Source of the DNA: Squalus acanthias
Taxonomy: Eukaryota
Length of the DNA: 64,000 nt
NCBI GenBank assembly: GCA_030390025.1
Contig: CM059441.1
Span: forward strand, 21,514,001 to 21,578,000
Direction: 5' to 3'
Shown: one piece after another, positions 2,499 through 55,982 of the stretch
Numbering within the stretch: the stretch's first letter is position 1
Layout of the letters: the number at the start of each line of letters is the position of its first letter
Notes under the pieces: generated by a model
Seen by the model: the letters and a program-made list of their open reading frames with translations, nothing else
Told to the model about the DNA's origin: nothing
Databases searched by the model: none
Program-made: the position numbers and the translations under genes

Positions 2499-2505
2499 TG
2501 TACTC

Positions 2506-5855: not shown

Positions 5856-6009
5856 TTAATATTTTTGTTGTAAATATGTTTTCATTGATTATCGATAAAT
5901 TTATTAACTCAGTTTGGATTCTTTTGTGATGTGTCGCATTTCAGCTTTGCACTGTGATATGGCCTGCGACAGGGATGGAATGATGGGGATGTGGTGAGCA
6001 ACGGGGATC

Positions 6010-7142: not shown

Positions 7143-7469
7143 GCTGATGCGCGCAGCCAATGAACAGAGCTGGCTGCACGCAGAAATCATGGAAATGAAC
7201 AGGCAGCACGAAGTTGGCGCCCTGCCTGCATTGCAATTAACGGGCGCGGGTTAATCGCACATCGCGATCCCTGCATCCATTTTATCCAATTTAACCCCCT
7301 GCATGTCTCATTGAGGATTCTTCAGTCTGATTTGCTTAAGAGCCTCGCTGTTTCTTGGGCTGCTCAGAAATGCCACAGACCTCCTGTAGAGGGAACCGCG
7401 CTGGACCTGACACCAGAGGACAGCAGGTCTACGCTCGAAAGCCTGCAAAAACTCTGTGGGCAGCTGTCA

Positions 7470-31537: not shown

Positions 31538-32129
31538 ATAATTCAATACCTGAAGGAATGAAACGTGACACTTTTAATTGTTCAATTTCTGGGCCAGTGA
31601 ATTTGATTGGTAGTCATTAACAATGATCACAATGTTAAAAGGGTACTTACCCTGTTAATGACTAGAATTAACTTTCTGTGGCGAGTTTAATGGGTAATTA
31701 ATGGGCAAATGTAGCAACTTCTTGAAACACATGTAGAGGTTAATGGCGAGCTGCCGTTTTCATGAAGGTAACGGCGGAGCGGCGCATATCAGTCAGTAAC
31801 TTGTGGCGATTCGCAATTCATGGGGTGTCTCTTGATCGCCACAAGTTGCTGGCTGATTGGCACATTAATGAAGGTATGTGTTGTTCACACATCGTTATTT
31901 TTCCAGCAATAGTACAGGAAATAAGACATGTCAGGGTGATTCAATAGCAATGCATAGCCTGCTTGGCCACACCTCCCAAGATGTTAATAACCATATCAGC
32001 AGTCATTGAACACCCTCCTGGCAGCAATTGTCTACAGCTCATCAAAGAGACAGATATCGAGCGGTGTCTTCTGCAGTCGAGATGAGAATTAAGAGCTGGA
32101 TGACTGATCTCAACTTTACAAAGAAAACG

Positions 32130-32166
32130 ATGTGGATTCTGATTCTTCTCATTTGTTCCCTGCCCG
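32130..32166 (+). CDS. Exon 1, signal peptide [12 protein letters not shown]
   Basis: ATG with A at -3 (aaacgATGtgg), hydrophobic leader, strong donor G|GTGAGT, phase 1; joins in frame to VSGALWA. Confidence 0.85.
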
Positions 32167-35100
32167 GTGAGTGACAGCCAGAGCGGGATATTCAGATAAT
32201 CAGTGTTAGTTTGAGTCTAGTGTACGGTTTATAGAGCAGAGAGGTTTAAATATTTGTAGACATGTAAAGGCACAAAATACCCAGCAAAAATATACATGAA
32301 TAATATTTGTGTGAAGTCTTGTAATCTCTTTTTGACTGTACTATTATACCACACAAATATTGTAGGGGGTGGTGGTTTGTGTCAGCTTTACCTCTGACTT
32401 CTGAGCGGTTCGAATCGCTCCCAGTCCCTTGGTTCTAGACCTTGGACTTATTTTGGGGTTGTGACAAAAGGTGCAGCAGACAACTGAGTTTGATGAAAAG
32501 AACTTCAATCTTTATTCAAAAGGTAAAACACAAATAATAACACTCTTAACACTCCAAAGGTGGGGAACACTTCGGTACAAGCGAGGGAAATGACAGTAGA
32601 ACAATACTTCACCCCTCCCAACCCCACTTTACTAGCTAAGTTAGGTTTTGAAGGACCAGGGATAATGCTCACCAATCCTTTGACAGTTGGGCTAAATCGC
32701 GGTTTTGGGGTTCACTGTTTATAGCGGTTAGTGTCTGCCGTACCCCGTACGCGGTAGAGGACTTCACCTGCGTCTCTGGTCAGTCTTCGCGAGTCCGCTG
32801 ATGCGGTAGGATGTCGTTTTGGATCTATCTGGTGAGTACCCAATTTCTTTGGTTTAGCAGTAGGGTTTAGAGTCTTTGGGGAAAATCTTACCCAGGGGTA
32901 AGTCAGGAGTAGATTGTAGAGTGGAAACTTTGCGGTTCTTCGGGTTTTCTTCCCTTGAGTTGGTCTTTATTGGTCGCGGTGGCCTGTTATTACCCGGTCT
33001 GTTGGGGGTAATATGCGGTTGTTGGTTACTTGAGGCCTTTGGTTTCCGCAATGGTTTTAGGCCTTGTCTAGTGTGTCAGTCGACCTCGTGGAGCCGTCGG
33101 TGACTTGTTGCTGCTTGTTCCTCCGGGTGACTGTGTTGGGACCGTTGTTGGAGGTCCGTCGAGGTGGTATCTTCACGAGCTGAACTCAGGTGTGTCTGAG
33201 TGGTGAGCGATGCCGACTCGCTTCCAGCTCGGTTTGTCTTCTTCCTGGTTTCTTCTTCTTCTGATGACCACGGACCTTGAACTGCTTAACAGGCCTTCAA
33301 TTATACGGAATTGAAGTGGCCTTATCTACCCGCCAAATCTACTCAGTTCATTGTCTGGTTTTGGCGGGCTCGTAAATCGGTAACGACTTACTAGCACGTT
33401 AACTGTTTTTTTAACAAGCCTTCAATCTCACGCATTGAACATGGCCTTATCTACCCGCCAAATTTACTCAGTTCATTGTCTGATTTTGGCGGGCCTGTTA
33501 CCAGTAACTGCTCTGTAAGTGTCAAATGGCCTTTGGGATGGTTTGCATCCTGTCGATCTTCTTGGTTGATCACTGGTGATTGATTTCGTATTTTGGGTTT
33601 CTAGGCTGGACTCGGTCTTTTCTATAGAATGGTCCTGAGTGGGTTTTATTATGCATGTTTGTGATGGGCCCTGTAATCGGTTTGATGGGGCCTGTTATTT
33701 TGGGTGGGACTGTCTTCTCCCAGGGTCTATTGTACAAATGTTAATGTCTGCTGGGGCTTGAGTGGGGTCATCCCGGTTCCCCAGACAGTGCAATTAACTG
33801 CAATACCCAAAACTGCTTTTACAGAGGTCGACCCCACCTCCTTGTCCCTTTACAGGCCCAGACATAGTTTTAAAATGCCAAAACTTGGTTTTTGGTCTTA
33901 AATTCCTTAGGTTAGGCCCAAATGCATTTTTATCACTCTGAGGTAGTTCCAAAGTCCTTTTTCCTTCGGTTTTTGGGGATCTGCAAAATTTTGGAAACCT
34001 TACAATATTTAGCAACATATACTAAGCTGCATTATTCATTGTGAATGGAAAATAAGGCCCATTTAATTTTTGAAATGCTACATAAGTAACATAATCAAAA
34101 TGCAAAGGTAACCCATTTTAATCTGTGAAAAGTTATTTTTTTTAATGTAGTCTGCTGTCCGATATACACTGAAGACTGCAGCAGTAATAATCCCTCACAC
34201 TGAACATGTCTCGAGTTTGCAATTGTTTCTGTTATTTAAAGTACAGCTGATGAAATATTGTTTCATGAGGCTCTGTCAGTGACACTGTTCCTCACTGGTA
34301 GAGGGTTGGTCTATATTACTCTTCCAGTAAGTAACCACTTTCTTCTCACTCTTTAACTCTAACCAAGTAGATTTAGTTTTTTCACTCCCGCCCCATATTA
34401 ACCTTATGTTGTAATGGAATTTGTGATAAATACAACTCTCCTCCGTTTATGATGAATGTAGTTTGTAACCAGCAATGTTGAACTCTCAGTCCCACCCTAC
34501 CCTAAGTCACGACTGTTAATTCTATTATATGAAATCTCCCCATAAAAAATTGTGCCTCCATCTTACCAATTTTACACAGAATACTTTATGTACTTATGTA
34601 ACTGACCCGTGCCACTGTCTGCTTGGTAATCTTCCTCTTTTCAGTCCTGCCTCTTTCTGATCTGATATTCCTTTACCTCCCCATTTCCCTCTTTTATCTT
34701 TCCTATTTCCTTTGTCCTTTCTGCTCTTCTCTCTGCCTCTTTAACCTCCCACCTGCCATTTTAGTGTAAACTCTTTCCCCACAGAACAAGCTCCCCTCCG
34801 AGCAAGGCAATTGGGCCAGTAACAAATTCTAACCAGCACTCCCTCAATACTGCACTGGAGTGTCAGCCTAAATTTTATGCTTGGGTCCCAGGAGTGGGCC
34901 TTGAACCCACATTCTACTGACTCTGAGGCATTAGTGCTAACACTGAGACACAGATGATATTTCAAAAATAAATCATTGGCTGTGAAGTGCTTTGGCACAT
35001 CCTGAGGCTGTGATAAGGCACTATATTAAAGTTTTCTTTTATCACAAACTAGAAGGAATTCAACTGTGTTAATAGATGGTGTGGAGAGATTCCTCTGTAC

Positions 35101-38100
35101 AGAGTGGTAACTCTTATTAAAATGTATCTGTTTGTATTAAGCGGCTATTTCCTGTTCAATTTCTGAAATGTTGTCTCCTCAGTTTCAGGTGCATTGTGGG
35201 CAAAAGCTGAAGTAAGAGGAGTTGTGGGAAGAGCGATCACAATAGATTGTCACTATAACAAATGGTACCAGTCACATGTGAAATATTGGTGTCACGGCTG
35301 GACTCAGCATTGTTCAGCTGTAGTAAAAACAAATGAGCAACCTGGATGGAATGGAAGAGTGTCAATCACAGATAACAAGACAGCAGGAATATTTGTTGTT
35401 ACTATGAAGGATCTTCGTCCAGAATATACAGGATGGTACAGCTGTGGGATTGAACGAGATCCCGCCCTCGATCTATTGTTTTATGTAAAGCTACAAATAT
35501 CTTACGGTACATTTCTCAGCGATTTTCTTTATTACTCTCGACTGAAATGTCTGATCAATGTTTTATCTGGGAGGAAACATGACAGCTCCAATATCCCGAG
35601 GCTCCGCAGCAGTGCAGAGTCTCACAGGTAGCGGGCAGAGGTCGGGAAATCCGACTCATGTTGCACATTCCCAATTCGTGGCCTGTCCAACTAGCTGACC
35701 AAGAATTTCAAGTATTATGGGACGAACAATTCCTTTAACTACAGAGTATTGTGCCAGACATCAGGAGGAATTTTAAACCACAAAACGGGTGGGTTGGGGT
35801 CGGGTGGGAGGTTAAAGTGATAAAAATCTGAATCTCGACCCCAACCCGCCTCCAACCCGCCCACTTCCGGTTTTAATGGAGGCGGGACGGTGCTGGCAGC
35901 CAACTCGCTCCCAGGAGGCGGGTCGCCCATTTTAATATTGTAATGAGGCTGGCGTGCCTCAGATTTAATCACCATTACAAATTTAACTGTGGCTGGTCAG
36001 GTTTCTCAGGCCTCGGGGACCCCGCCAGCTAAAGTAAGGCGACACTGCTGGATCCAGCAGGTAAGTGAAAAGCTTTGTAGTTGCACAAGGGTATGCACAT
36101 GTCTGGTTGAGAAATTGTTATGCTGTTAAGTTTCTGTTCTTTAGCAGAATCACATGAAATATATTACGTTGCACCACTTTCCCGTGTTGCCCATTCTTGG
36201 TTGCTGGTGGCAACTCGCCTTTCCAGCAGCTTGTTCATGAATGGGAAGACATGAATTGAGGGGGAGCAATGGGGGGATGTGCAACGTGTGGTTGGTTGGT
36301 AGCAGGTCTGCTTTGTGTCAGTGGGATTGGAGGAGGGCGGGGCAGTTGAGACTGGCCGTTGGAGGTGGTTGTTACATCGGTCCAGTGGTGGTAACTAACT
36401 GAACCTTACAGCTATAAGGGAAACGCTGGCATCGCGGGCAGCAATGTGAGTGACTGGTGCTGCGTTGGTGTCGCAATCTCCTTCCTCCTCCTCCTCCTCC
36501 TGCTTCTTTTCCTCTTCTTATCTTCCTCTTCCCTCTCGGATTCGTCCGTAGACAATGTGTGCTCAGCGCCTTGTTCCTCATGCAGCTCCAATCTTGCTGC
36601 TGCGCAATGTTGTGCAGAGCGCAGTAAACCACGATCATTCTGGAGACCCTGGCTAGTGAGTACTGAAGGGGCCTCCAGATCGGTCCAGGCAAATGAAGTG
36701 CATCTTGAGGTTGTGAGTAGAAAAGTGCTCAGGGACAGGCTCGCAAGCAGAAGCATTTCAAGATAGACTGTCCAGTCACCAAGCAAATTTTGGCCTAACT
36801 GTTTCTGAGCACAGTTTGTGGCAAGGACAGAACTGAAGGCCCACCAATTCCCATTAAAAGTGTTGGTGAATCTGGTCACCTTTGTGTTTTGGCTACTCCT
36901 TTGAGACAGAGATAAAGGGGGGAATTTTAACCACCGCCACTCCCCAAACGGGCAGGAGAGCGTCGGGTGGGAGGTTAAAATTGGTAAAAATGTGCAACCC
37001 AACCCGCCATGAACGTGCTTACTTCCTGTTTAACCACGGCGGGTTTGGGGGGGTCCGAGTACCCCGCGCTGGAGAGGCGGGTCAGCGATTATAATATTTA
37101 AATGAGGCTCAGTTCCTCAGATTTAGGGAGCCCTTTGAATTTAACGGCAGCGGCCCGGGTTTCCCAGGGCTGCTGATTGGAGGCGGGAGCTGCCGGATCC
37201 AGCAGGCAAGTGCTTTTCCAGCACTGCTTGTGGGCCAGGAGGAGCAGGAATGCTTCCCTCCAGCTCCTTAACAAACCTTCTGCTGCTATCTCTCCCTCAT
37301 CGCCTCGCGCTCCTAGCCCCACCCCCAACAATTCCTGATCTTCTACTGCAGGCTTTCCCGCCCGGCAGCCAGCCAGCCTCTCAATCTGGCCCACAGCCGG
37401 GTGGGAAACGGAGTAAAGGAATGCTAATGAGGTCCTGCTGTTAAATTCGGCACGACCTCCACCCTCCCGGCATTTCCGGGTTTCCCGACCACACACTCGC
37501 TCCCTCCCCGGCTCCCCGTAAATGTCGGGACCAAAGGATTCCTTTTCAGCTGCAGTTAACTGAAAACAATCACAATTACACTCCCGATCTAAAGTCACTA
37601 AAATGTAACAGATATCTGCCAATTTTATTCCCGCATATTCTGCTGTGGTTTTCTTGGACTCTCTCCAACTAATTCATGTTCAAGAGACAAACGATTCAAC
37701 AGCATTGGAGGCTGGCTACCTGCTATTGAGAGAAATTGTTAGCCCTGATTTTTCACGCTGGCACATCCTCAGTATCATTGCTGCTGGAGAGGTAGATGTG
37801 CCGGTGAGATTCCAACATGGCAGGCCCTGGCTGAGATACAGAAGTGCTGGAAATTGGAGAGTATTTGATTTTTAGATGTTCAGTCAGTATCTGAATGTTT
37901 GTTTCTTTCCCACAGAATCCGTGTCAGTTCCTGTACTTAGAATTTTATCGCCACCAAATGTCTCATGTTTTGGGGGCTCAGTGTCAGTCTCCTGTGAGTC
38001 TGTCCAGGGATCTCTTCCCATTCAGTACACATGGTACAAAAAGACCCCGTCTGAAGATTCAAAGATCTCTGACACCAATAAACTGGATCTACATTGTCAA

Positions 38101-41100
38101 TCCTTCAAACAGCAACATCATCAATATTACTGCACAGCCTCAAATAATCAGGGGAAAAAATCCAGTGAAATGGTTGACGTGTCAGTCTTCAACAGAGCAG
38201 GGAAGACCTGCAGTTATGTGACACAAATCAGCGACATTGGTAAGTGTTACTTTAAACAAACAAAGTGGTTAACAAATTTTTTTAATTAATGTCAATCCAT
38301 ACTGGTCGCTAGTTAATTACATTCAGTCACTGAGAGAAACTGCAAAAAAAATTGCATTTATATAGCACCTTTCACGACATCCCAAGGCACTTTACAGCCA
38401 ATGAAGTACTTGCAATGTGTAGGCATTGTTGCACTGTGTTTTTTGCTGTTTTTTACTGATGGTTGGTTGAGGGATAAATGTTGGCCAAGACACCGGGAGA
38501 ACTTTGCTGCTCTTATTCGAAATAATGCCATGGGAACTTTTATGTCCAGCTGAGAGGGCAGATGGCGTCTTGGTTTAATGTCTCACCTGAAAGACAGCAC
38601 CTCCAACAGTGCAGCACTCCCTCAGTACTGCACTGGAGTGTCAGCACAGATTATGTGCTCAATTCTCTGGACTGGGACTACGAACCCACAATCTACTGAA
38701 CCAGAGGTGAGGGTGCTACCACTGAGCCACAGCTGACACAATAACAATAATGACCATATTTCAAAAGTAAATCATTGGCTGTGAAGTGCTTTGGCACATC
38801 CTGAGGATGTGATAAGGCACTATATTAATGTTTTCTTTCATCACAAACTAGAAGGAATTCAACTGTATTAATAGATGGAGTGGAGAGATTCCTCTGTACA
38901 GAGTGGTAACTCTTATTAAAATGTATCTGTTTGTATTAAGCAGTTATTTCCTGTTCAATTTCTGAAATTTTGTCTCCTCATTTTCAGGTGCATTGTGGGC
39001 AAAAGATAATGTAACAGGAGTTGTGGGAAGAGCGATCACAATAGATTGTCACTATGACAAATCGAAGTACCAGTCACATGTGAAATATTGGTGTCATGGG
39101 ATGACTCACTGTTGTTCAGATTTAGTAAAAACAAATGGGCCACATGGAAGAATGTCCATCACAGATAACAAGACAGCAGGAATATTTGTTGTTACTATGA
39201 AGGATCTTCGCTCAGAAGATACAGGATGGTACAGCTGTGGTATTGAAAAATCTGGCATCAATCCAATGTTAGCTGTAGAGCTACAAATATCTTACGGTAC
39301 ATTTCTCAGCGATTTACTTTATTACTCTCGACTGAAATGTCTGATCAATGTTTTATCTGGGAGGAAACATGACAGCTCCGATATCCCGAGGCTCCGCAGC
39401 AGTGCAGAGTCTCACAGGTAGCGGGCAGAGGTCGGGAAATCCGACTCATGTTGCACATTCCCAATTCGTGGCCTGTCCAACTAGCTGACCAAGAATTTCA
39501 AGTATTATGGGACGAACAATTCCTTTAACTACAGGCTATTGCGCCAGACATCATGTGTGATGCTCACCACATTTTCCTGTCTCTGAATTGTATTAAATGT
39601 CACAATGTCAGATGTTTGCATTCAGACTAAAACTAATAGTCAGACAATAACAAAAGCAGTGAGCAGCAAGTCGTTACTAATGGTATGAATTCCTAGAAAA
39701 TAATAAAAATAGAATCAATCCACAGAGCTTAACAGGTTTCATAGGCTTCCTGATATGATGTGTGGCTCACATCATCAATGAGATACTTTGGTCTGCCGAA
39801 CAGTTTTCAACATTTCAAGCAAACTGAACTAGAATTGAAAAGCTAGGTCACGGTTTTAATGGTAAAGGAAGCCTCTTTATTAATTGTTGAGACAGTATCT
39901 TCCTCCCAAGCATAACCTCTGATGCATCAACTATTAAATACAACGGCCTGGATATTAACTTCGAGGCATGTCCGGGTCCGAACTGTTTTCGGGCCGTATC
40001 AAATTATCCAGCCTCTGTCTCCTATACCTTCTTCTGCCGTGACCTCTCCCCCCCACCCCCAACCAGCAATCGGCCAACTCCCACACCCCACGATCGGCTA
40101 ACCTCCCCCCCCCGCGATCTCCCCCTCCCTTCCTCGCTCCTCGCTGCCGTACACCGAGCATCAACCACCGATCTTCTAGCGCAGGCTTTCCCTCCCGGCA
40201 GCCGGCTCACCTCTCAATCTGGCCCACTGAGGGACGGGAAACGGCAGACAGGAATTCGAATGAGATCCTGCCGTTAAATTCGGCACGACATCCACCCTCC
40301 CGGCATTTCCAGGTTTCCCGACCACACACACGTTCACTCCCCGCCTCCTCGCAAATGTCGGGACCAAAGGATTCCTTTTCAGCTGCAGTTAACTGAAACA
40401 ATCACAATAACACTCCCGATCTAAAGACACTAAAATGTAACAGATATCTGCCAATTTTTTCCCTCATATTCGGCTGTGGTTTTCTAGGACTCTCTCCAAC
40501 TAATTAATGTTCGAGAGTCAAACAATTAAACAGCATTGGAGGCTGGCTACCTGCTACTGAGAGAAATTGTTAGCTCTGATTTTCCCGTTGACACATCCTC
40601 AGTATCATTGCTGCTGTTCTGATCGGGAGCCCTGCTATGTTCTGATATAATGGCAGACATGGTAGTTCAGGCTGCTCGGAGGGTGGAGAGACATGGAGAG
40701 GTAGATGTGCCGGTGAGATTCCAACATGGCAGGCCCTGGCTGAGATACAGAAGTGCTGAAAATTGGAGAGTATTTGATTTTTAGATGTTCAGTCAGTATC
40801 TGAATGTTTGTTTCTTTCCCACAGAATCCGTGTCAGTTCCTGTACTTAGATATTTATCGCCACCAAATGTCTCATGTTTTGGGGGCTCAGTGTCAGTCTC
40901 CTGTGAGTCTGTCCAGGGATCTCTTCCCATTCAGTACACATGGTACGAAAAGACCCCGTCTGAAGATTCAAAGATCTCTGACACCAATAAACTGGATCTA
41001 CATTGTCAATCCTTCAAACAGCAACATCATCAATATTACTGCACAGCCTCAAATAATCAGGGACAAAAATCCAGTGAAATGGTTAACGTGACAGTCTTCA

Positions 41101-44100: not shown

Positions 44101-47100
44101 GGAAGTGGCGGTAGGGATTGTGGATGCATTGGTAATAATTTTCCAAAACTCCCTGGACTCAGCAAAGATCCCGGCAGACTGGAAAACTGCTAATGTAACA
44201 CCCTTATTTAAAAAGGGCAGTAGACAGAAGGCTGGAAACTATAGACCAGTTAGCCTAACATCTGTGGTAGGTAAAATTTTGGAGTCCATTATTAAGGAGA
44301 CAGTAACGGGACATTTGGATAATCATAATTTAATAGGACAAAGTCAGCATGGTTTTATGAAGGGGCAGTCATGTTTGACAAATTTGCTGGAGTTCTTTGA
44401 GGAAGTAACATACAGGGTGGATAAAGGGGAACCAGTGGATGTGGTGTATTTAGACTTCCAAAAGGCATTTGACAAGGTGCCACACAAAAGATTATTGATT
44501 AAAATAAAAAATCACGGGATTGGGGGTAATATTCTGGCATGGATAGAGGATTGGCTATCTAACAGAAGGCAGAGAGTTGGGATAAATGGTTCATTCTCAG
44601 ACTGGCAATCAGTAACTAGTGGTGTTCCGCAGGGGTCAGTGCTGAGGAGGGGGCCGAGTGTAACATATCAAAGTTTGCAGATGATACTAAGATGGGAGGG
44701 AAAGTAGTGAGTGAGGAGGACAGAAAAAATCTGCAAGGGGACATAGACAGGCTAAGTAAGTGGGCAGAGATTTGGCAGATGGAATACAATACTAGAAAGT
44801 GTGAGGTTATGCACTTTGGCAGGAAAAATAGTAGAGCAAGTTATTATCTAAATGGCAAGAAACTGGAAAGTACTGAAGTACAAAGGGATCTGAGGGTCCT
44901 GGTGAACGAAACTCAAAAGGTTAGTATGCAGGTGCAGCAAGTGATTAAGAAGGCAAATGGAATGTTGGCTTTCATTGCTAGGGGGATAGAATATAAAAAT
45001 AGGGAGGTATTGCTTCAGTTGTACAAGGTATTGGTGAGACCGCACCTGGAATACTGCATACAGTTTTGGTGTCCATACTTAAGAAAAGACATACTTGCTC
45101 TCGAGTCAGTACAAAGAAGGTTCACTCGGTTAATCCCGGGGATGAGGGGATGGACATATGAGGAGAGGTTGGGTAGATTGGGACTCTACTCATTGGAGTT
45201 CAGAAGAATGAGAGGCGATCTTATTGAAACATATAAGATTGTGAAGGGGTTGGATCGGGTGGATGCGGGGAGGATGTTCCCGATGATGGGTGAAACTAGA
45301 ACTAGGGGGCATAGTCTTAGAATAAGGGGCTGCTCTTTCAAAACTGAGATGAGGAGGATCTACTTCACTCAGAGGGTGGTAGGTCCATGGAATATGCTGC
45401 CCCAAAAAGCTGTAGAAGCTACATCATTACATAAATTTAAAACAGAAATAGACAGTTTCCGAGAAGTAAAGGGAATTAAGGGTTACGGGGAGCAGGCAGG
45501 AATTTGGACATGAGTCTAGGTTCGGATCGGTCATGGCCCTGTGGGTAGCGTAGCGGGCCCGGGGGCCGTGTAGCCTGATCCTGCTCCTATTTTGTGTGTC
45601 CAATTCTGTTAGATTCAGGAGATGGTTCTGTGATAGTAGATGAATTTTTTAAATTAATGTTTATCCAAACTGGTCGCTAGGTAATTACATAGGATTACAT
45701 AGGATATACGGCACAGAAACTGGCCATTCGGACCAATCAGTCCATGCCGGCGTTTATGCTTCACTTGAGCCTCCTCCCGTCTTTCCTCATCTAACTCTAT
45801 CAGCATAACCCTCTATTCCCTTTTCCCTCATATGCTTGTCTAGCCTCCCCTTAAATGCATCTATACTATTCGCTTCAACCACTGCCTGTGGTAGCGAGTT
45901 CCACATTCTCACCACTCTCTGGGTAAAGAACTTTCTTCTGAATTCAATATTTGATTTTTTAGTGACTATCTTATATTGATGGCCTCTAGTTATGCTCTTC
46001 CCCACAAGTGGAAACAGTCTCTCTGTATCCACTCTATCAAAATCTTTCATAATTTTAAAGACCTCTATTAGGTCACCCCTCAGCCTTTTTTCAAGAGAAA
46101 AGAAACCCAGACAGTTCATCCTTTCCTGATATGTATACCCTCACATTTCTGGTATCATCCTTGCAAATCTTCTCTGGTTTGTGATTTTTTAAAATTAATG
46201 TCTATCCAAACTGGTTGCTGGTTAAGTTCTTTCAGTCTCTCAATTATGAACTAGGCCACTGATTTGCATGTTTCATGGAAAATGGACGGAATCATAAAAT
46301 ATGATCCTAAAACATGCGTAAACATTGCAGAAAGTCCAGTAATCCCATGAGATTAAAATTGAATGTGATTGACTGAGTCTTCATAAACTAACCTGACGAT
46401 TTCATAGAATCATAGAAATTTACGGCACAGAAGGAGGCCATTCTAGCCGATGGAATTGTGAACTGCAACCGCCAACCTGTTGTGTCCTAGTTTAGGAGGG
46501 ATGTCAAGGGTAGAGTGCAGAAGAATTGAACTAAAATGATACCCGGGCTGAGATGTTTTAGTTAAGAGGAGAGAAAATTATTAGGGGTTTTGATAAGGTA
46601 AGTTGGGACTAACTATTTCCACTAGTCAGTGAGCCAGCAACTAGAGGGCATAAATTTAATATCATCACCAAAAGGACAAAGGGAGAAGTTAGGAGAATGT
46701 TCTTGGTGCCAATGGTTATTAGGGAATGGGACTAAGTGGGGAGCTCTTTCATCTACACACAAAGGGTGGTAGAAGCCTGGCACTCTCTTCCGGAAACGGC
46801 AATTGATGCTAGATCAATTGTTAATTTAAATCTGAGATTGTTAGCTTTTTGTTAACCAAAGGTATTAAGGGATATGGGCCAAAGGCGGGTATATGGAGTT
46901 AGATCACAGATCAGCCTTGATCTCCTTGAATGGCGGAACAGGCTCGAGGGGCTGAATGGCCTCCTCCTGTTCCTATGTTCCTAGAGGCCAGCATAAGAGC
47001 GATGGGCTGAATTTCCTTCTTCTGTGCTTTAAAATTCTATGATTCCAAATTACCAGCCAGAATCTCAGAATTCCATGTACTAAAAACTGAATTACTCAGT

Positions 47101-50100
47101 CACCGTAAAGCAATGACCCTGGTTCTGACTTAAGAAGGACTTTAGACTATTTAAATGTAGCGGTTTAATTTTCCGCAGAGTGGGAAGCAACATGCTCACC
47201 ATTGGTTGTGTTGAGAAACATCAAAACGGTTAGAAAACAAAGAGAAATGCATTTTCTCCTGAGCAGTTATACATATAAATTAACACATGCAAATATTGAC
47301 TGCGGCTGTATGCTGATGTGGTCACTTGCTTTATCTGTTGAGAAGAAGGATGTCAGCAGCAGGTAGAAATTTCACCTGTAATCTGCATTTGTACTGTAGG
47401 TGTCAGCAGTGGCTCAGTTGCTAGCGCTCTTGCCTCTGATACCAGTAGGTTGTGGGTTCAAAGCCTGCTCCAGAGATATAATTCAGGCTGAAACCACTGA
47501 CCAGCACTGAGGTAGTGCTACACTGTTGGAGGTGCTGTTGCCTAGATGAGACCTTAAACTGAGGACCCATCTGCCCCCTCAGGTAGAAGTGAAAGATCCC
47601 ACAGGCACTCTTCAAAGGAAAATAGGTAAATTTTCCTGTGTGTCCTGGCAAGCATTCATCTCTCAACCAACGTCATTAGAAAATAGATGATCAGATGATT
47701 TATCATATTGCTGTTTGAGGGACCTTGCTGTGGGCAAATTAGCTTCCGCGTTTCCCTATATTACAACCGTGACTACACTTCAAAAAAGTACTTCATTGGT
47801 GGTGAAGCACTTTGGGACATCCTGAGAATGTGGAAGATGCTGTATCAATGCGAGTTATTTCTTAGATTTTGAAACAAATTATTTACTTGAAACACACCTG
47901 AGCCAATGATCTGAGTGCTCACTGGAGGTGGGGAGCCTCTCCCGCCAGCAACACCGATCACTATAATTAAATGGACAGAAAATCGCTGGCAGGATTTTAC
48001 TGCCCCAATAGTAACTCTGTGCCACCAACTCTCAGATATGGGAAAGAAACAGAAATTATCAGTAAAAATGGGCCACGGCCAGGTGTCAGCAGCATCTCTC
48101 CTTGCTACCAGAGAGGGGGAAATTACACAGGAATTAAATCATCCAAATCCATTATATCAACCAGGCTTTTACTCAAGTAATGAGGCTCCATTTGACAATA
48201 GTGCTCTCTTGGTTGACTACAAGTGAAAATGAGGTGAATCTGAATTTTATTCCCTTGTTTCAATAGGACCTGAATATTCTTGTGAAGTTTTTTCAACAGT
48301 ATCACCAACAACTACACATTCCACAAGTACAAATATAATTTCCACTGATAATCGAAACCAAACTTCAGGATCCAAATCGCCGAGCAGGTACAATGTTCTC
48401 ATTGCTGGTGTTTTGATTGGCACTGCTTCCATGTGAGAGATTAAATGTTCTTTAATAATTTTATCATAAGGGGTGAAAATCATTTATTATTTCGGAATGT
48501 AGCTCATCAGAATGAAAATGGTGGCTGGGTTTACATCATGCTGTTGTGTTAGCTTCCGAACGAAGGTGCTATCTTTGTTGGTAGGAAATACGAATAAGAA
48601 GTAAGCACCTCCATTTTGCCGCCCCTCAGATGGTGCTCCTTGCAGTATTCACCATGATTACTTCACCACTAACCTAACCTCATGCCGACATCTGTTCTGG
48701 TGTGGCACTGATAGAAAAGTTTCTGCTGGTGAAAGGGAGCAATCACAGCGATATATCTGCACAGCCCTTGATATCACTAGTGAGCGACATCTTGCAGCTT
48801 TGGTCCAATTCTCAGTGTCGGTCACTACAACTGCAGGAAGTTTCTTTTCTTAAAATGTGTTCCTGGGAGGTGGGCAATGCTGACAAGGTCACATTTATTG
48901 CCCGTCGCTAGTTGCCCTGAGAAGGTGGTGCTGGGCCTTCTTCTTGATCTGCTGGCCAATGGTGTTAAGTAAGAAATTCCATGATTTTGAGTTAATAACA
49001 ATAAAGAAACAACAGTATAGTTCCAAGCCAGAAAAGTGTGTAACTTTGAGGAGGTGGTGTTCTCATGATGTTGGATGTCTTGCCCTTTTTGGCGGTACAG
49101 GCCATTGGGCTCAGAGGTGATTTTAAGTTAAGCTGGGAAAGTATTTTTTTAATTGATTCTCAGGATGTGGGCGTTGCTGCATTGTGTCCTGTAGATAGTA
49201 GGCACTGTAGCCACCGTGCGCCAGCGGTGGAGGGGGTGGATATTGAACTCAGTGGCAGGGCACTGACCATATGGACTGCTTTGTCTTAAATAGTGGTGAA
49301 CCTCTTGAATATTGTTACAGCTGCACCCATCCAAGGTGAGTATTCCATCACACTCCTAACTTGAGCACTGCAGATGATGGAGAGACTTTCAGAGATCAGG
49401 GGGTGGGTGAGCCACTCGTTGCAGAGTACCCAGCATCTGCCCTGCTTTTGTAGCCACAGTGTTGGCGTGGCTGGTCCAGTTAAGCTTCTGGGCAATAGCG
49501 ACCCCTAGGATGTTGATGGCAGGAGACTCGTTTTTAGTGGTGCCCCTTTAAGTCAGGGCTTGGAGAAGGTTTTCTCCAATTCATATTCTCTGGCTATATA
49601 TTTCACCCAATGTGTTTGGATGTAAATACTCAATTAACATAACTCACTTCTCATTTCTGTATTATTAGCCCAAGCTGTAGGCAATAAGCAACAGAAATTG
49701 TAGCCCAATGTAAACACTAAGGAATTGGGTCTTTGAAGTTACAACAGTAATAAGGTATTGTCATCAGGTATTCTTTTGTTCTGTTTTTATTATATGAAAC
49801 TTACCACGCTTTAAACATGGCTCAGTGTTAGCACACACGCCTTCTGAGTCAGAAGGATTGTGGGTTCATAGTCCCACTCCAGAGGCTTGAGCACAAAAAT
49901 CTAGGCAGATACTCCAGTACATTACTGAGGGAGTGCTGCGCTGTCAGAGGTGCCATCTTTCAGATGAGACGTTAAACCCAGGCCTCATCGGCCCTCTCAG
50001 GTGGACGGAACAGATCCTGTGGCAATTTCTGAAGAAGAGCATGGGAGTTCTCCCTGGAGGCCTGGCCAATGTTTATCCCTTAACCAATATCACTAAAAAA

Positions 50101-53100
50101 ACAGAATATCTGGTCATTATCACATTGCTGTTTGTGGGAGCTTGCTGTGCGCAAATTGGCTGGCACGTTTCCTACATTAAACAGTACATTTAAATGTACT
50201 TCATTGGCTTTGGGACATCCTGAGGTCGTGAAAGGTGCTATATGAATGCAAGTCTTTCTTTCTTTAAACAAATAGCCAAGAATCAATTGAGAACCAGTCC
50301 GATTCTCTGTACCACAGCCTGGTTTACATTGTGCTCGGTGTGCTGGGGGCCCTTATTCTTGTGCTTGCTGTTCGTCTACTTTCCTACCTGATGCAAAACA
50401 ACAAGGGTGAGTTTCTATTTTTCTTTAATCATTTCATTATATGTCAATAATTTGCTGCAGAATTAAGGAGAACATAGTTCGTTGTAATCAACAAACACCT
50501 ATGATTGTAATATTCTGCACATTCTAGTCTAGATGTATTTGCTGGAGAAATAACCAATGTGTATTATCAAACTACCCTCCACTCACTGCATTTTTCTGAG
50601 AAATCATCCTGTTTTTATTGGGAGAAGTTGCTGTAGTTTTGGTCATGAGTTCTGTTTCCTCTAGTTTGTAGAGACTCTTTTTAAATAGACTCTGTAGACT
50701 GTTTGCTGTAGTGCACTGTTTAAATAGACTCTGCTGAGTAAATAAACTTTGTTTGCTTTACTGTTTGCTTATTAAATATATTTTGCTTGCTGTAAAATAA
50801 ACTAATCCCGCCGCACCTCCAACTCATTGGCTGATACAGTGCAACTCATTGGCTGATACAGTTATGTCAATAGACACCCTGATTTCTCCGTGTGATAAAA
50901 TGTTTTGCCTCCCACTGATGGCACAACAGATCAGGACCTCATTTTCAGGGTAGAATTAATCGGTCTTTGACTCGCAAAGCCCTAAATACACGGGAGGCTA
51001 ATTTACACCTTCACGTCTTGGGCGATAATCTGACAGAGCGCCTCGTAGAAATCAACGGGATGAAAATCGGGTTCTACAACAGGCAGGTGATCTGCTGCAT
51101 CAGACGGTGAGGGTGAAAGTTACCTCCATTCTTTCTGAATATTATGCATAATAACCAGAGCAGTTTTACGCTCTATGTAGGGAATCATGGGTGCAATGCA
51201 GATGAGGTTCACATGAATGTAGATCTATGTAAGGCTGTGTACGCTGAAACACATGCTCAGTTTGGACATTTTAAACATATTAATCGTTCCTGTTATAGCT
51301 TTCAACAGTAACATTGTAATTTTTCAGATACAAACTACATTATGAGTCATGGAGGAGAGAGCACTCTTAATGATAATCAGGTAAGGATATTAAGTATGAA
51401 TTCTCTGAGTAATGTTTGGAAATTTGCAAAACTGGATTACATAGAATTTACAGCACAGAAACAGGCCATTCGGCCCAACTGGTCTATGGAGGACACAAAT
51501 AAACTCCCAGAGATGTCGGGAACATAGGGTCTAATGAGAGGGAAGAACTGAATGAAATCAGTATTTGTAGGGAAATGGTGTTAGGGAAATTGACGGGATT
51601 GAAGGCCGATAAATCCCCAGGGCCTGATAATCTACATCCTAGGGTACTTAAGGAAGTGGCCCTAGAAATAGTAGATGCATTGCTGGTCATCTTCCAAAAT
51701 TCTATAGTCTCTGGAACAGTTCCCATGGATTGGAGGGTAGCTAATGTAACCCCACTATTTAAAAGAGGTGGGAGAGAGAAAACGGGGAATTATAGACCGG
51801 TAAGCCTGACATCGGTAGTGGGGAAAATGCTAGAGTCCATTATAAAAGATGTAATAGCAGAACACTTGGAAAACAGTGACAGGATCGGACAAAGTCAACA
51901 TGGATTTACAAAAGGTAAATCATGCTTGACTAATCTACTGGAATTTTTTGAGGATGTAACTGGTAGAATAGATAAGGGAGAACCAGTGGATGTGGTGTAT
52001 TTGGACTTTCAGAAGGCTTTCGATAAGGTACCGCATAAGAGATTAGCGTGCAAAGTAAAAGCACATGGGATTGGGGGTAAGGTACTGATTTGGATAGAGA
52101 ACTGGTTGGCAGACAGGAAGAAAAGAGTTGGAATAAACGGGTCTTTTTCCGAGTGGCAGGCAGTGACTAGTGGGGTACCGCAGGGATCGGTGCTAGGACC
52201 CCAGTTATTCACAATATATATTAATGATCTAGACGAGGGAACTAAATGTAATATCTCCAAGTTTGCAGACGACACAAAGCTGGGTGGGCATGTGTGTTGT
52301 GAGGAGGATGCAGAGCAACTCCAGTATGATTTGGACAGGTTGGGTGATTGGGTGCCAGCATTTATGCTCCACACGAGCTTCCCACAAACCCATTTTCATC
52401 TAACCCTATCAGCATATCCTTCTATTCCTTTCTCCATCATGTACATATCTAGCTTCCCCTTAAATGCGTCTACGCTATTCACCTCAACTACTCCTTGGAT
52501 TGGCTACAATCTTTAATATCATTACTGATGGGCACAGAGGGAGGTTGGCCTTGGCTCTAATGCTAGAAATGAGCCTTTGTTAATTGTTTAACCCAGTCTT
52601 TGGATTTGTGATGACTTTTCTCAGTCTACATTTTCATATATTCCTGTGAAGTCCCAAGTACTAATGCAAAAACTGAAAAAACTCTTGAACAGGAAAAGGC
52701 CATCAGGAGCAACCAGCCCCTCTGCTCTGCTCTCTAAGGTCGACCTCACCTACCCACTTTCTCACTATATCTGTCAATGCTTTCCCGCTCCAAAATCTCT
52801 CTTAATGGCCCCAATTTTCCAGGGCCTCTGACCGCGTACGCTGCCGTTAGTGCCCCGCAAGTTTCTGCGTGCGATGCGCATGCGCCAAAACCTGGAACTT
52901 GCGATCTGTCAAGTTTCAGCTTGACAGATCATACGAATCCCCGGGAAATGGACATTCGCTGGCAGAGAGTTGGGCTATTTGCCCAGCGAATGCCCACGAA
53001 ACTTACGCCTGGTAAAAGCAGGCGTAGGGCTTTCTTTTTCCAGCGTAAGGGTTTAAAGAAATATTAAAATAAATGTTTTTTAAATCATTTAAACTTTAAA

Positions 53101-55982
53101 AAACCTTTAAAATTAGTTCAGGTTCTTTTGGACACTTTAAAAATATTTTTCAAAAAATTAAATTTTAGTTTTAAATGTTTAATTACGTTGTATTTTAATT
53201 AATTTTGATCATGTAATTATTTATTTTTATTTAAGTTGTGTGAAATTTGTGATTTTTATGTGATTCCTATTAAGCTTATGGGGATTCTGTACGCAAATGG
53301 AATCTCCATAAGCATAATGAGGATCCCCCTTTCTCATTGGTTGGGCCGGCCCACGTGATCGCAGGGACGCTTGTGAACCGCATTCGCTCCTGGGATACGT
53401 GGGCCTTTATGCAGGCGTACGCCTGCAGGCCCAGGAGCGCGAGTCTTCATAGGTACCGGACCATCAGGTAGGTTCGCACTTTATTGCAGTTCGGAGGCAT
53501 TCGCTCACTGGAAGCTTCCAACTGCAAATTCAGGCCCATTGTCTCTTAAATCTATTCATCAATAGTCTTTCCTTGTAATATTTTACACAGCTCTATTGAG
53601 TGCAGAAAGTTTGACCTGACTTACTGCCTTAATTTCAATTTGACATCCCAAGTATTTGAACCTTTTGCTGCAGTGAATAATTTGACTGGGTCAATTTTAT
53701 TCATTAACTTCATAATCTTAAAAATCTCAATTTCATCACCTGTCTCTCCTCATGTCCAAAGACTGTACTATACCAGTGAGGACGTTACAAATTTCAGGTC
53801 TGCCACAGATATTCTCTCATGTTAGCATCACCAGTCTCTCCCATAAGTGGAACCACATACCTTACAATCTGGAATTTACTGTGGCTAGATGTACGACAAC
53901 ATAACAATGAGATCCGCCCATTATATGAACTGGATGTTGTCATCCTTCACTTGGGCTTCTCCAGTCTTCTGCTAGGTGGACTGATTGACCTCATCACCCC
54001 GTAGAGTCAACATAAAATCAAGACAGTGGTTTATGCACAGAGCTGAACAAAGTCGCATTTCCAGACTTGAACTTCATCTATAATGATGCGGAGATGCCAG
54101 TGTTGGACTGGGGTGGACAAAAGTGAGAAGTCGCACAACACCAGGTTATAGTCCAACAGTTTTATTTGAAATCACAAGCTTTCGGAGCGCTGCTCCTTCG
54201 TCACCTGACGAAGGAGCAGCGCTCCGAAAGCTTGTGATTTCAAATAAAGCTGTTGGACTATAACCTGGTGTTGTGCGACTTCTCACTTTCATCTATAATG
54301 CTTCACATAACCTACAAAACAACAGACACACTGCGCTATCCCAAACAGGGGGCTAAATGCTCAGTTTTGTTTCCCTTTGTGAGACAAACAGCACAGCACC
54401 TAGACTGTTGAGAACTTTGTGACCCAGGAGGGTGAAGCCTCAAAGTTTTAAAATATTTTTACACTAGTGACCCTCTATTGGCATTGCCCAAAGTACTTCA
54501 AGAGCAGGGCTCTGGTCAAATGTGGCCTGGAACATGACAGCCCAATGTTGACAGTGGTAAATAAGGAATTCCCAAATGTTGTCTTGGAATGATGATATAA
54601 AAGCATTACTCAAAAATTGTAAAACTGGAAATTAGGTTTTTGGGCCAGGAAGTTGCACGTGCATTATTTTAACATCTTAACCTCCTCCAGTTCTACAACT
54701 CTCCAAGAACTCTGCGTTCCTCCAACTCTGGCATTCTGCATCCCCCACTCCCTTAACCCCACCATTGGTGGATTTGACTTCAGACACCTCGGCCCTAAGC
54801 TCGGGAATTCTCTCCCTAAACCTCTCCGCTGCGCTCTCCTCCTTTAAGACGCTCGTCAAAATCTTTTTGCCTTAAAACCTTAAAAGCTTTTGGTCAACTG
54901 CCCTAATGTCTCCTTCTTTGGCTTGGTTTCAACTTTTAACTGATTACGCTCCTGTGAAGCTCCATGGGACGTTTTACTACATTGAAGGTGCTACATGAAT
55001 GCACATTGTTGTTGTTGTAAATATTGATGTCGTTAATAGATGCAGTTCGGATCACTGCTACTTCACCTATGAGATGGTAATATGTAAGGTGTTATCATAC
55101 GCTCTTGGAAAATTAAAAACTTATGGAAAGAGTGAACAGGCTGGGGCTCTTTTCTGAAAATAGAAAACTGAGGGGTGACCTGATAGAGGTCTTCACGATT
55201 ATGATAGGGTTTGATAGTGTCGACGTAGAGAAGATGTTTCCACTTGCGGACGAGACCAGAACTATGGGCCATAAATATAAGATAGTCACTAATAAATCCA
55301 ATAGGGAATTCAGGAGAAACTTCTTTACCCAGAGAGTAGTCAGAATGTGGAACTTGTTACCACAGGGAGTAGTTGAGGTGAGAAGCATAAATGTATTCAA
55401 GGGGAAGCTGGATAAGCACCTGAGGGAGAAAAGAATAGAAGGATATGTTGATGGGGTTAGATGAAGAGGGGTGAAAGGAAGCTCGTGTGGAGCATAAACA
55501 CCGACATGGACCCGTTGGGCCTGAGCTGTAAATAATTTGTAATAATTTGTAGTACTTTGTAAGCCGATTTGTAATAATCTAGAAATAGATTTCTCCTCTT
55601 AACTGCACAAATCACCATTCAACTTAATCAGAAATAAATTGGACCTTGTATTATTTTATTTTAGCAATTGGCAGCAGCAGCAGGGAGCACTTTATACGCA
55701 AGTGTAAAGCACATTCGATGTAGCTCAGTAGAAACGCCCAGCGAGGGAACTGCCCAGTTGAGTAACGACGAAAATGAAATCACGTATGCAACAGTGCAGT
55801 TTCAAAAGAGATCGACAGCACGGAACGGTGAGGTGGCAAGGCACTCAGTTAACAACGAGGACAGTGTCATCTACAGTGGTATCAAGATTCAAAGCCAGCC
55901 CCCAAAGAACAATAGAGAACCTCCATCACTTGATACTCCACAGGACTCTGAAATGGCAATTTATGCTGACGCTAGATCTTAG
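32130..55982 (+). CDS. Spliced gene for a CD300/pIgR/MDIR-like Ig-superfamily receptor, V-C2-V-C2-stalk-TM-ITIM tail, 646 aa. Exons: 32130-32166, 35183-35506, 37916-38239, 38988-39296, 40825-41148, 48267-48387, 50276-50406, 51328-51380, 55665-55982
   Basis: All eight introns are GT-AG. Phases 1,1,1,1,1,2,1,0 join into one open frame of 1941 nt ending TAG. The domain order is that of a type I immune receptor. No transcript evidence is available. Confidence 0.85.
32361..34004 (-). mobile_element. Solo LTR, family B (1644 bp), antisense in intron 1
   Basis: TGTAGG...CCTTACA termini, perfect 4-bp TSD ATAT, AATAAA on - strand at ~32511. Confidence 0.85.
35183..35506 (+). CDS. Exon 2, Ig V domain 1 (CD300/pIgR/TREM-type)
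   Basis: [41 protein letters not shown], with the extra C-C' cysteine pair typical of CD300/pIgR V domains. Acceptor ctcctcAG (alternative tttcAG 6 nt downstream); donor G|gtacat. Confidence 0.92.
35763..36690. mobile_element. Harbinger remnants in intron 2 (MITE end plus transposase C-terminus on - strand)
   Basis: [22 protein letters not shown] plus acidic tract at 36370-36690. Confidence 0.65.
36917..37532. mobile_element. Harbinger-type MITE; a related element with the same right end lies at 39945-40365
   Basis: GGGGGGAATTTTAAC start; shared ...AAATGTCGGGACC end. Confidence 0.6.
37916..38239 (+). CDS. Exon 3, Ig C2-type domain 1
   Basis: [33 protein letters not shown]; acceptor ttcccacAG, donor G|gtaagt; phase 1-1. 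Confidence 0.92.
38338..38740 (-). mobile_element. tRNA-derived SINE with L2-type tail
   Basis: Reverse complement has an A box (GTGGCTCAGTGG), a B box (GGTTCGTAGTCC) and tail gtgaaaggtgctatataaatgca. Confidence 0.82.
38988..39296 (+). CDS. Exon 4, Ig V domain 2
   Basis: Paralog of exon 2 with intact EDTGWYSC; acceptor ttttcAG, donor G|gtacat; phase 1-1. Confidence 0.9.
40825..41148 (+). CDS. Exon 5, Ig C2-type domain 2
   Basis: 324-nt paralog of exon 3 with the same splice sites. Confidence 0.92.
41179..45600 (+). mobile_element. Near full-length CR1 LINE in intron 5: ORF1 (zinc finger + SGNH esterase) and ORF2 (APE endonuclease + RT), disrupted
   Basis: ORF1 CYCCEMW..CDKC, GDSIIRG, HVGTND, DGLHL. 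ORF2 [35 protein letters not shown]. Frameshifts and a 140-bp insertion. Confidence 0.93.
43391..43530. mobile_element. Penelope-type terminal fragment forming a perfect 102-bp palindrome (43429-43530)
   Basis: TSD ATATTTAAGGA; same family as 54086-54287; removing it restores CR1 ORF2 ([11 protein letters not shown]). Confidence 0.8.
45686..46175 (-). mobile_element. CR1 3' fragment
   Basis: [26 protein letters not shown]; tail at 45686. Confidence 0.85.
47400..47862 (+). mobile_element. tRNA-derived SINE
   Basis: A box gtggctcagttg, B box ggttcaaagcc, L2-type tail. Confidence 0.8.
48267..48387 (+). CDS. Exon 6, Ser/Thr-rich stalk [40 protein letters not shown]
   Basis: Acceptor ccttgtttcaatAG, donor AG|gtacaa. 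Phase 1 in and phase 2 out bridges exon 5 to the TM exon exactly. Mucin-like composition. Not in the ORF track. Confidence 0.8.
49818..50261 (+). mobile_element. tRNA-derived SINE immediately upstream of the TM exon acceptor
   Basis: A/B boxes, (TTTC)n tail, TSD CTTTAAACA (49809-49817 and 50262-50270). Confidence 0.88.
50276..50406 (+). CDS. Exon 7, transmembrane exon [44 protein letters not shown]
   Basis: Long hydrophobic segment; acceptor aaatAG, donor G|gtgagt; phase 2 in, phase 1 out. Confidence 0.87.
51328..51380 (+). CDS. Exon 8, short cytoplasmic exon [18 protein letters not shown]
   Basis: Acceptor tttttcAG, donor CAG|gtaagg; phase 1 in, phase 0 out, as required by exon 9. Confidence 0.78.
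51489..52350 (+). mobile_element. CR1 RT fragment embedded in an antisense CR1 3' end (51437-52496)
   Basis: ORF 51575..52516: [30 protein letters not shown]. Confidence 0.85.
52807..53537. mobile_element. Harbinger-type MITE with AT-rich core
   Basis: GGCCCCAATTTTC...CAAATTCAGGCCC termini. Confidence 0.65.
54086..54287. mobile_element. Penelope-type inverted terminal (pLTR) fragment, 84-bp arms
   Basis: Arms 54120-54203 and 54206-54289 with one mismatch; TSD TTCATCTATAATG (54073-54085 and 54288-54300). Confidence 0.82.
54201..54237 (+). ncRNA. Minimal type I hammerhead ribozyme motif
   Basis: Stem I UCAC/GUGA, core CUGACGA, extra A, stem II GGAGC-AGC-GCUCC, GAAA, palindromic AGCU stem III, then U. 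Matches the minimal hammerheads known from Penelope-like elements. Confidence 0.75.
54670..55020 (+). mobile_element. L2 LINE 3' fragment
   Basis: Homologous to 8690-8980; (tgt)n tail. Confidence 0.7.
55125..55545 (+). mobile_element. CR1 3' fragment
   Basis: [23 protein letters not shown]. Confidence 0.85.
55665..55982 (+). CDS. Exon 9, cytoplasmic tail with tyrosine motifs TLYASV (ITSM), ITYATV (ITIM), VIYSGI (ITIM-like), AIYADA
   Basis: Acceptor ttattttAG; same frame as ORF 55668..55982; stop TAG. Confidence 0.87.
   Translation, partial: QLAAAAGSTLYASVKHIRCSSVETPSEGTAQLSNDENEITYATVQFQKRSTARNGEVARHSVNNEDSVIYSGIKIQSQPPKNNREPPSLDTPQDSEMAIYADARS

What the first reader, a model, noticed from the sequence alone, without database searches (positions are those of the whole stretch)
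32130..55982. Intact four-domain (V-C2-V-C2) inhibitory-type immune receptor built by internal cassette duplication
Seen in sequence: nine exons assemble into one 646-aa frame across ~24 kb of mostly TE DNA. The leader, stalk and TM exons are absent from the ORF track. Established knowledge: CD300/pIgR/TREM-type V domains joined to C2 domains define the modular domain immune-type receptors (MDIRs) of cartilaginous fish. Inference: an alternating V-C2-V-C2 ectodomain, made by a recent doubling of a V+C2 unit, may be an undescribed architecture and shows domain modularity being generated.
Basis: partly seen in the sequence, partly recalled or inferred. Interest (0 to 1): 0.75.

Follow-up and report, generated by a model that had tools for sequence, protein, structure and literature searches.

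The report
Shark immune receptor with fused cassettes
An unbroken shark gene predicted to encode an inhibitory immune receptor with four antibody-like domains; the layout is already on record in skates and other sharks, and this copy likely arose when two different V+C2 units were joined at a short repeat, not by a recent doubling.

Summary
The gene is in the sequence. It is the last of 13 leader-V-C2 genes in a 0.7-Mb paired-receptor cluster and the only one with two cassettes.

The 'undescribed architecture' claim fails. Skate MDIR5 is V-C2-V-C2-TM (60% identical over 446 aa). MDIR3 is V-V-C2-V-C2-TM with ITIM-like motifs. Of 120 listed homologues, 11 are exactly V-C2-V-C2-TM, 7 of them with two or more ITIM-like motifs.

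'Recent doubling' also fails. V1 and V2 fall in different V subfamilies (p-AU 0.0013) and differ as much as paralogues do. The join lies at a dispersed repeat whose body is not the copy that normally precedes V, which fits repeat-to-repeat unequal crossover. A paralogue 600 kb away looks like a one-cassette contraction of this gene.

Whether exon 3 is spliced to exon 4 remains open. Verdict: new member of a known family (MDIR), with a well-resolved breakpoint as the only point of interest.

The parts
32130..32166 (+). Exon 1, leader (signal peptide start)
   Evidence: ATG and GT donor, phase 1; all 12 other cluster genes have a homologue
32361..34004 (.). Insertion in intron 1, absent from the paralogues at this site
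   Evidence: Paralogue alignments break at 32361 and resume at 34004
35183..35506 (+). Exon 2, V1 domain, V subfamily A; tandem in-frame acceptors at 35183 and 35189
   Evidence: Pfam V-set; PDB best hits pIgR, CD300, NKp44, TREM2; tree
37916..38239 (+). Exon 3, first C2-type domain
   Evidence: Pfam Ig_3/Ig_2; 92.6-97.8% identical to paralogue C exons
38240..38344 (+). Post-C intron remnant, left side of the cassette join
   Evidence: Aligns to paralogue post-C introns up to 38341-38344
38345..38740 (.). Dispersed repeat at the join (SINE-like, label recalled); crossover inferred near 38723-38760
   Evidence: Many genome-wide matches from query position 100 on; 79-85% identical to the pre-V copy of 9 paralogues over 38551-38722, where these are 93-96% alike, then 97-98% from 38761
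38988..39296 (+). Exon 4, V2 domain, V subfamily B, sister to paralogue g03
   Evidence: Pfam V-set; 94.2% to g03, 85.8% to V1; 98/97 support
40825..41148 (+). Exon 5, second C2-type domain
   Evidence: 96.3% identical to exon 3; Pfam
41172..45640 (.). LINE-type retroelement DNA in intron 5
   Evidence: Endonuclease- and RT-like ORFs by inspection; homology to paralogues stops at about 41172; g03-like post-C intron resumes near 45640 by eye
48267..48387 (+). Exon 6, Ser/Thr-rich stalk; read-through of its donor gives a 16-residue end and a stop
   Evidence: C2-to-stalk joint in RNA-guess contigs
50318..50406 (+).
   Evidence: hydropathy 2.7 over 21 residues
51328..51380 (+). Exon 8, membrane-proximal cytoplasmic exon
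   Evidence: TM-to-exon-8 joint in one RNA-guess contig
55665..55982 (+). Exon 9, cytoplasmic tail with TLYASV (ITSM-like), ITYATV (ITIM), VIYSGI (ITIM-like) and stop
   Evidence: four paralogues carry a 94-97% identical exon

Best explanation
This is an open-frame MDIR-family gene predicted to encode an inhibitory cell-surface receptor with two V+C2 cassettes, likely formed when unequal crossover between two copies of a short repeat joined the cassette of one gene copy to that of a diverged copy. SHOWN: exon layout, open frame, domain classes, tail motifs, cluster membership, position of the join, V1 and V2 in different subfamilies. INFERRED (origin): a private repeat about 105 bases behind a C exon recombined with the repeat that precedes V in intron 1 of the family, which removed one stalk/TM/tail and one leader. 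Phase-1 symmetric exons kept the frame. Later a copy of the two-cassette gene lost cassette 1 by crossover between the two pre-V introns and became paralogue g03. INFERRED from established paired-receptor biology (function): the V domains bind ligand and the conserved C2 domains and stalk act as spacers. Ligand binding leads to tyrosine phosphorylation of the tail and recruitment of SHP-1/SHP-2-type phosphatases, which dampens the Arg-TM activating siblings. Two different V domains would give one receptor two specificities or greater reach. The likeliest ligands are microbial or damaged-cell surface molecules such as lipids (CD300/TREM analogy, recalled, untested).
For: Open frame and phases. 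Whole predicted protein aligns end to end with MDIR5 (60% over residues 1-446), MDIR3 (50% over 13-632) and catshark V-C2-V-C2-ITIM models (63-66% over 1-629). Cluster of 13 genes, 5 with the tyrosine tail and 6 with an Arg-bearing TM exon. V exons have pN above pS in 62 of 66 pairs (means 0.124 vs 0.080), C exons in 18 of 78 (0.033 vs 0.050); pairs are not independent. AU test rejects V1+V2 (p 0.0013) and the whole cassettes (p 0.0034) as one clade. The repeat at the join differs from the orthologous pre-V copy along its body and switches to pre-V flank at its far end. g03 matches cassette 1's intron at 34956, 34968 and 35030 and cassette 2 at all 7 diagnostic sites from 35040 to 35182. Repeat-bounded hybrid genes are described for KIR (PMC3606631, passages).
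Against: C exons alone (p 0.15) and the post-V intron (p 0.29) do not reject the two cassettes as sisters, and the pre-V intron only weakly (p 0.04). The two cassettes are 98-99% alike in the intron next to V and C, and share an intron block found otherwise only in g03 and g12; this fits doubling within one sub-lineage followed by conversion of V1. g03 carries a V1-like patch at 35448-35470 and one cassette-2-like site at 35008 inside its cassette-1-like stretch, so conversion blurs the history. No paralogue shows the postulated private repeat behind C. No function was tested.
Confidence: 0.7

Rival explanations
1. Same receptor, but made by an old doubling inside one gene (crossover between alleles or sister chromatids at the same two repeats), after which V1 and part of its intron were overwritten by a subfamily-A paralogue.
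For: Cassettes 1 and 2 share the 37337-37586 intron block with only g03 and g12; exon-adjacent intron is 98-99% alike; the region shows patchwork conversion.
Against: Needs extra events. The shared block is only 90% identical. Cassette 1 carries a 650-base intron block (36063-36713) shared with 10 other paralogues and absent from cassette 2 and g03. Even if true, it is not recent.
Confidence: 0.2
2. The gene is expressed mainly as a two-domain receptor that skips one cassette (leader to V2, or C1 to stalk), or as a soluble form ending in the stalk exon read-through, so the four-domain protein is minor or absent.
For: All skips keep the frame. Intron 3 is a hybrid of two introns. One RNA-guess contig of another organism joins the leader to a V2-like exon, though it may be a paralogue. 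The stalk read-through is open in all 13 stalk exons examined.
Against: Both cassettes keep GT-AG sites and open frames although they are as far apart as paralogues, while 3 of the 12 paralogues have a frameshift in V or C. C-to-V junctions are present in the MDIR3 and MDIR5 protein records.
Confidence: 0.15
3. Assembly artefact: two paralogues mis-joined at a repeat.
For: The join lies in a repeat inside a cluster of 90-98% identical genes.
Against: No N in 864 kb. The join is unique in the genome. DNA contigs of two samples from two studies hold the private repeat pieces (38382-38475 with 1 difference in both; 38473-38566 and 38625-38731 with none in X5), and both show contigs covering the A-run at 38343; one sample may be the assembly's source, and bridging by 31 letters on each side is not shown. 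g03 is itself a cassette-1/cassette-2 recombinant, which is simplest if the two-cassette gene existed.
Confidence: 0.04

Closest known systems
Clearnose skate MDIR5 (ABC86800.1, 501 aa)
   Same: Leader-V-C2-V-C2-stalk-TM; 60% identity over residues 1-446.
   Different: Arg-bearing TM and short tail without ITIM-like motif; its first C2 belongs to a skate-specific subtype.
Clearnose skate MDIR3 (ABC86797.1, 701 aa)
   Same: Ends in V-C2-V-C2-TM with three ITIM-like motifs; 50% identity over residues 13-632.
   Different: One extra N-terminal V domain.
RefSeq models XP_038676042.1 (Scyliorhinus canicula), XP_041050568.1 (Carcharodon carcharias), XP_055510908.1 (Leucoraja erinacea)
   Same: Exactly V-C2-V-C2-TM with 2-3 ITIM-like motifs; 66%, 64% and 51% identity nearly end to end.
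   Different: Automated models, named 'pIgR-like' or 'uncharacterized'. Their domains do not group with this gene's, so one-to-one orthology is not shown.
Mammalian CD300, pIgR, TREM, NKp44
   Same: Best solved-structure hits for V1 by sequence; extra cysteine pair in both V domains; paired activating/inhibitory logic of CD300 and TREM (recalled).
   Different: No C2 domains in CD300/TREM and V-only tandem domains in pIgR (recalled). Tweety and EBP50 family genes, recalled as CD300 neighbours, lie on other contigs.
KIR hybrid genes and Xenopus XFL receptors (process analogues)
   Same: Repeat-bounded recombination makes hybrid genes (PMC3606631, passages); intergenic exon recombination makes many domain architectures (PMC2413239, passages).
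   Different: Unrelated Ig subtypes; the KIR hybrids in the passages read are gene deletions and hybrids, not added cassettes.

Membership tests
MDIR | Ig domains homologous to skate MDIR domains | tested here: met
   C exon 67-68% to MDIR5/MDIR3; V2 59% and 52% to the MDIR5 V domains; whole protein
MDIR | V domains related to CD300/pIgR/TREM (PMC3031540, passages) | tested here: met
   PDB search: pIgR, CD300 and NKp44/TREM chains make up the 28 hits
MDIR | Multigene family of activating and inhibitory receptors | tested here: met
   13 genes; 5 tyrosine tails, 6 Arg-TM exons, 2 with neither found; signalling class is inferred from motifs
MDIR | Variable number of modular ectodomains (recalled from Cannon 2006, not read) | tested here: met
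   One or two cassettes in this cluster; 1 to 9 cassettes among 120 homologues
MDIR | Expression of the spliced multi-domain transcript in immune tissue | tested here: inconclusive
   Family joints V-C, C-stalk, stalk-TM, TM-tail seen in RNA-guess contigs, gene of origin unknown; exon 3-4 joint open
Inhibitory (ITIM) receptor | Cytoplasmic (I/V/L/S)xYxx(L/V) motif and uncharged TM core | tested here: met
   ITYATV, plus TLYASV and VIYSGI; one Arg near the inner end of the TM
Inhibitory (ITIM) receptor | Phosphatase recruitment and inhibition | not testable with these tools
   Needs cell assays
pIgR proper | V-only tandem ectodomain and Ig transcytosis (recalled) | tested here: not met
   Two of four domains are C2-type; transport not testable
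CD300 proper | Single V domain; linkage to TTYH2/NHERF1 (recalled) | tested here: not met
   Four domains; Tweety hits on C18, C24, C2143 and EBP50_C on C18, C1505, none on C17

The most novel reading that the evidence does not exclude
One cluster preserves both directions of MDIR modularity at base resolution: a SINE-to-SINE crossover that added a V+C2 cassette from a different V subfamily, and an intron-to-intron crossover that removed it again (g03). Tandem cassettes would then arise repeatedly in sharks (domains group by species in Heptranchias, Scyliorhinus, Pristiophorus and this genome) while skates keep an old fixed pair, so shark MDIRs would be a germ-line combinatorial system that pairs two ligand specificities on one inhibitory tail.
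Probability: 0.45. Interest if true: 0.45.

Novelty: new member of a known kind. Interest (0 to 1): 0.24.

Why it matters
The architecture itself teaches nothing new. The value is modest. MDIRs are little studied: one paper in the held library matched the full name and one matched MDIR+skate+CD300. This locus gives a mapped breakpoint and a likely contraction product that show how cassette number changes. It also gives a natural pair for ligand tests: two positively selected V types on one inhibitory tail beside single-V activating siblings.

Tried and rejected
RNA support for the exon 3 to exon 4 joint: no RNA holder was on record; 5 of 21 listed runs were RNA guesses. Four were laid on 32000-51500 (15 of 189 joints shown) and two again on 37880-39330 with two DNA runs (15 of 36 joints shown). 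The joint was not among the rows shown, and the RNA contigs on exon 3 carried paralogue-type letters. The lists were cut and crowded by repeats and tissues are unknown, so this is no evidence either way.

Alternative TM acceptors 50253, 50281 and 50292 break the frame.

CD300-type linkage was not found. The one IL10-family hit is on the same contig but about 6 Mb from the cluster, too far to weigh. The flank scan covered the 150 longest of 1477 low-repeat ORFs, so synteny is sketchy.

The original MDIR paper (Cannon 2006, seen only in reference lists) is not held. What I say of its content is recalled, and its figures or supplements may already show the V-C2-V-C2 layout and exon structure. Searches for shark-specific treatments listed nothing further on MDIR architecture; subscription journals are largely absent from the library. 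No earlier scan notes were found nearby. No fold or complex prediction was run.
Full report
OBSERVATION. The window lies at G000:C17:21514001-21578000 in a 3.7-Gb genome. The closest named relatives of the C exon are sawshark proteins at 92% identity and every listed hit with a source name is from a cartilaginous fish, so the organism is inferred to be a shark. Nine exons with GT-AG introns join into one frame with only the final stop. Two in-frame acceptor choices give 646, 644, 632 or 630 aa. The upstream V1 acceptor (35183) matches the leader-V junction of MDIR3 and MDIR5. The TM acceptor at 50276 is private to this gene; the four inhibitory paralogues can only use the 50318 equivalent, an RNA-guess contig of another organism uses it, and the sawshark model runs from stalk straight into the TM. 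I therefore prefer 632 aa. Exons 2 and 4 are V-set and exons 3 and 5 are C2/I-like by Pfam. The tail holds TLYASV, ITYATV and VIYSGI.

CONTEXT. Searches of the own genome with V, C and tail exons and BLAST over 864 kb without gaps show 12 further leader-V-C2 genes between 20.87 and 21.51 Mb, each with its own leader and one cassette, plus remnants. Four carry the same tyrosine tail, six carry a TM exon with an Arg and a short tail (activating type, inferred), and for two (g03, g07) no TM exon was found. Three of the 12 have a frameshift in V or C (g03, g08, g09) and g10 has one extra base in the tail exon; these could be assembly errors. This gene is the only one of 13 with two cassettes. V exons show an excess of replacement changes (62 of 66 pairs among the 12 in-frame V exons) and C exons do not (18 of 78 pairs among 13); pairs are not independent.

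IS THE LAYOUT NEW? No. The C exon found 134 longer proteins, of which the best 120 were listed and parsed with HMMs built from this family's exons. 65 of 120 hold an adjacent V-C2-V-C2, 11 are exactly V-C2-V-C2-TM, and 7 of these have two or more ITIM-like motifs. Many are automated models, and some clearly fuse neighbouring genes because they have internal TM segments. But the named skate records MDIR5 (V-C2-V-C2-TM) and MDIR3 (V-V-C2-V-C2-TM, three ITIM-like motifs) are among them; that they came from cDNA is recalled. The predicted protein aligns with MDIR5 at 60% over its first 446 residues and with catshark, great white and little skate models nearly end to end. PMC3031540 (passages) describes MDIRs as multigene activating/inhibitory receptors similar to CD300, TREM and pIgR.

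HOW WAS IT MADE? Not by recent doubling. V1 and V2 are 85.8% identical over their length; V1 is closest to g09, g01 and g08 (93%) and V2 to g03 (94%). In a tree of all 14 V exons they lie on opposite sides of a 100/99 branch and holding them together is rejected (p-AU 0.0013; whole cassettes 0.0034). C exons (0.15) and the post-V intron (0.29) do not reject it, and the pre-V intron does so weakly (0.04). Synonymous distances between the cassettes equal the family means. The join is sharp: post-C intron homology ends at 38341-38344 and a dispersed repeat begins at once. Paralogues have a repeat of the same family before V. The copy here is only 79-85% identical to theirs over 38551-38722, where nine of them are 93-96% alike, and identity rises to 97-98% from 38761 (g03, g08 and g10 and cassette 1 were left out because their copy is truncated or interrupted). 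That is the pattern expected if a private repeat behind a C exon crossed over with the pre-V repeat near its far end (inference). Paralogue g03 shares this gene's leader region (95.6%), follows cassette 1's intron to about 35030 and cassette 2 from 35040 on, apart from one site at 35008 and a V1-like patch at 35448-35470. The simplest reading is that g03 is a contracted copy of a two-cassette gene, which makes the arrangement at least as old as that split (about 4-6% divergence). Against pure fusion, the two cassettes are 98-99% alike next to the exons and share an intron block with only g03 and g12, so old doubling plus conversion stays possible.

ACROSS SPECIES. In trees of domains from 17 hand-picked proteins of the 120 and 5 of the 14 local cassettes, C domains group by species in Heptranchias, both Scyliorhinus genes and Pristiophorus (starred). 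They group by position in skates (starred) and, for the first C and second V, in Carcharodon and Cetorhinus. This fits repeated origin or homogenisation in sharks; the tree cannot separate the two.

REALITY OF THE JOIN AND EXPRESSION. DNA contigs of two samples from two studies hold pieces of the private repeat and of V2 with 0-1 differences and cover the A-run at 38343; one may be the assembly source and no listed piece bridges the join. RNA-guess contigs show V-to-C, C-to-stalk, stalk-to-TM and TM-to-tail joints that may come from any paralogue. The exon 3-to-4 joint remains open.

MECHANISM. Most likely an inhibitory paired receptor: variable V domains bind ligand, C2 domains and the glycosylated stalk hold them away from the membrane, and the phosphorylated tail recruits SHP-type phosphatases. 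The anatomy is shown; the signalling follows from established ITIM biology (recalled); ligand and cell type are untested. Repeat-bounded hybrid genes in KIR (PMC3606631, passages) and combinatorial architectures in Xenopus XFL (PMC2413239, passages) are known parallels for the process.

VERDICT. Observation confirmed with a small correction; family assignment supported; novelty of the layout refuted; 'recent doubling' replaced by a likely older fusion at a repeat. New member of a known kind, interest 0.24.

Noticed in passing
window 48388-48438 and paralogue stalk exons: Reading through the stalk exon donor gives a 16-residue, partly hydrophobic end and a stop in all 13 stalk exons examined: a possible soluble or GPI-type form.
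   Followed up: no
G000:C17:20.68-20.81 Mb (L063, L067, L070, L117, L119): Eight more distant V-set exons without a C2 partner of this family, three in tandem within 6 kb: a second, V-only CD300/pIgR-like group beside the cluster.
   Followed up: partly
L112:3782-4144, L091:6525-6872, L100:8243-9466: The cluster is flanked by AdoHcyase-family, G-alpha and CCD48-family exons. AHCYL1 and GNAI3/GNAT2 lie on human 1p13 near the CD300-like gene TMIGD3 (recalled, untested), a possible synteny lead.
   Followed up: partly
L081:5470-6583 (G000:C15:31.06 Mb): An orphan copy of the last exon with flanking intron and 3' sequence (97% in the exon, one stop) on another chromosome, with no other exon of the gene in the 10 kb fetched.
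   Followed up: yes
G000:C17:21289076-21289347 and 21356346-21363339: Remnants: an Arg-TM exon with no V or C nearby, and a C exon split by an insertion followed by stalk and TM exons.
   Followed up: no
window 1-9840 and 18887-28334: A block of about 9.8 kb of transposon DNA is duplicated at 95-98% identity upstream of the gene; it holds LINE-like and transposase-like ORFs by inspection.
   Followed up: no
TM exons of g01, g04, g08, g10: The four other inhibitory genes have near-identical TM exons, while this gene's is 86% identical to them: its TM region is a separate lineage.
   Followed up: no
P0001-P0012: Public models with up to nine V-C2 cassettes in a row in thorny skate and six in Mustelus; real arrays or fused gene models, not checked.
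   Followed up: no
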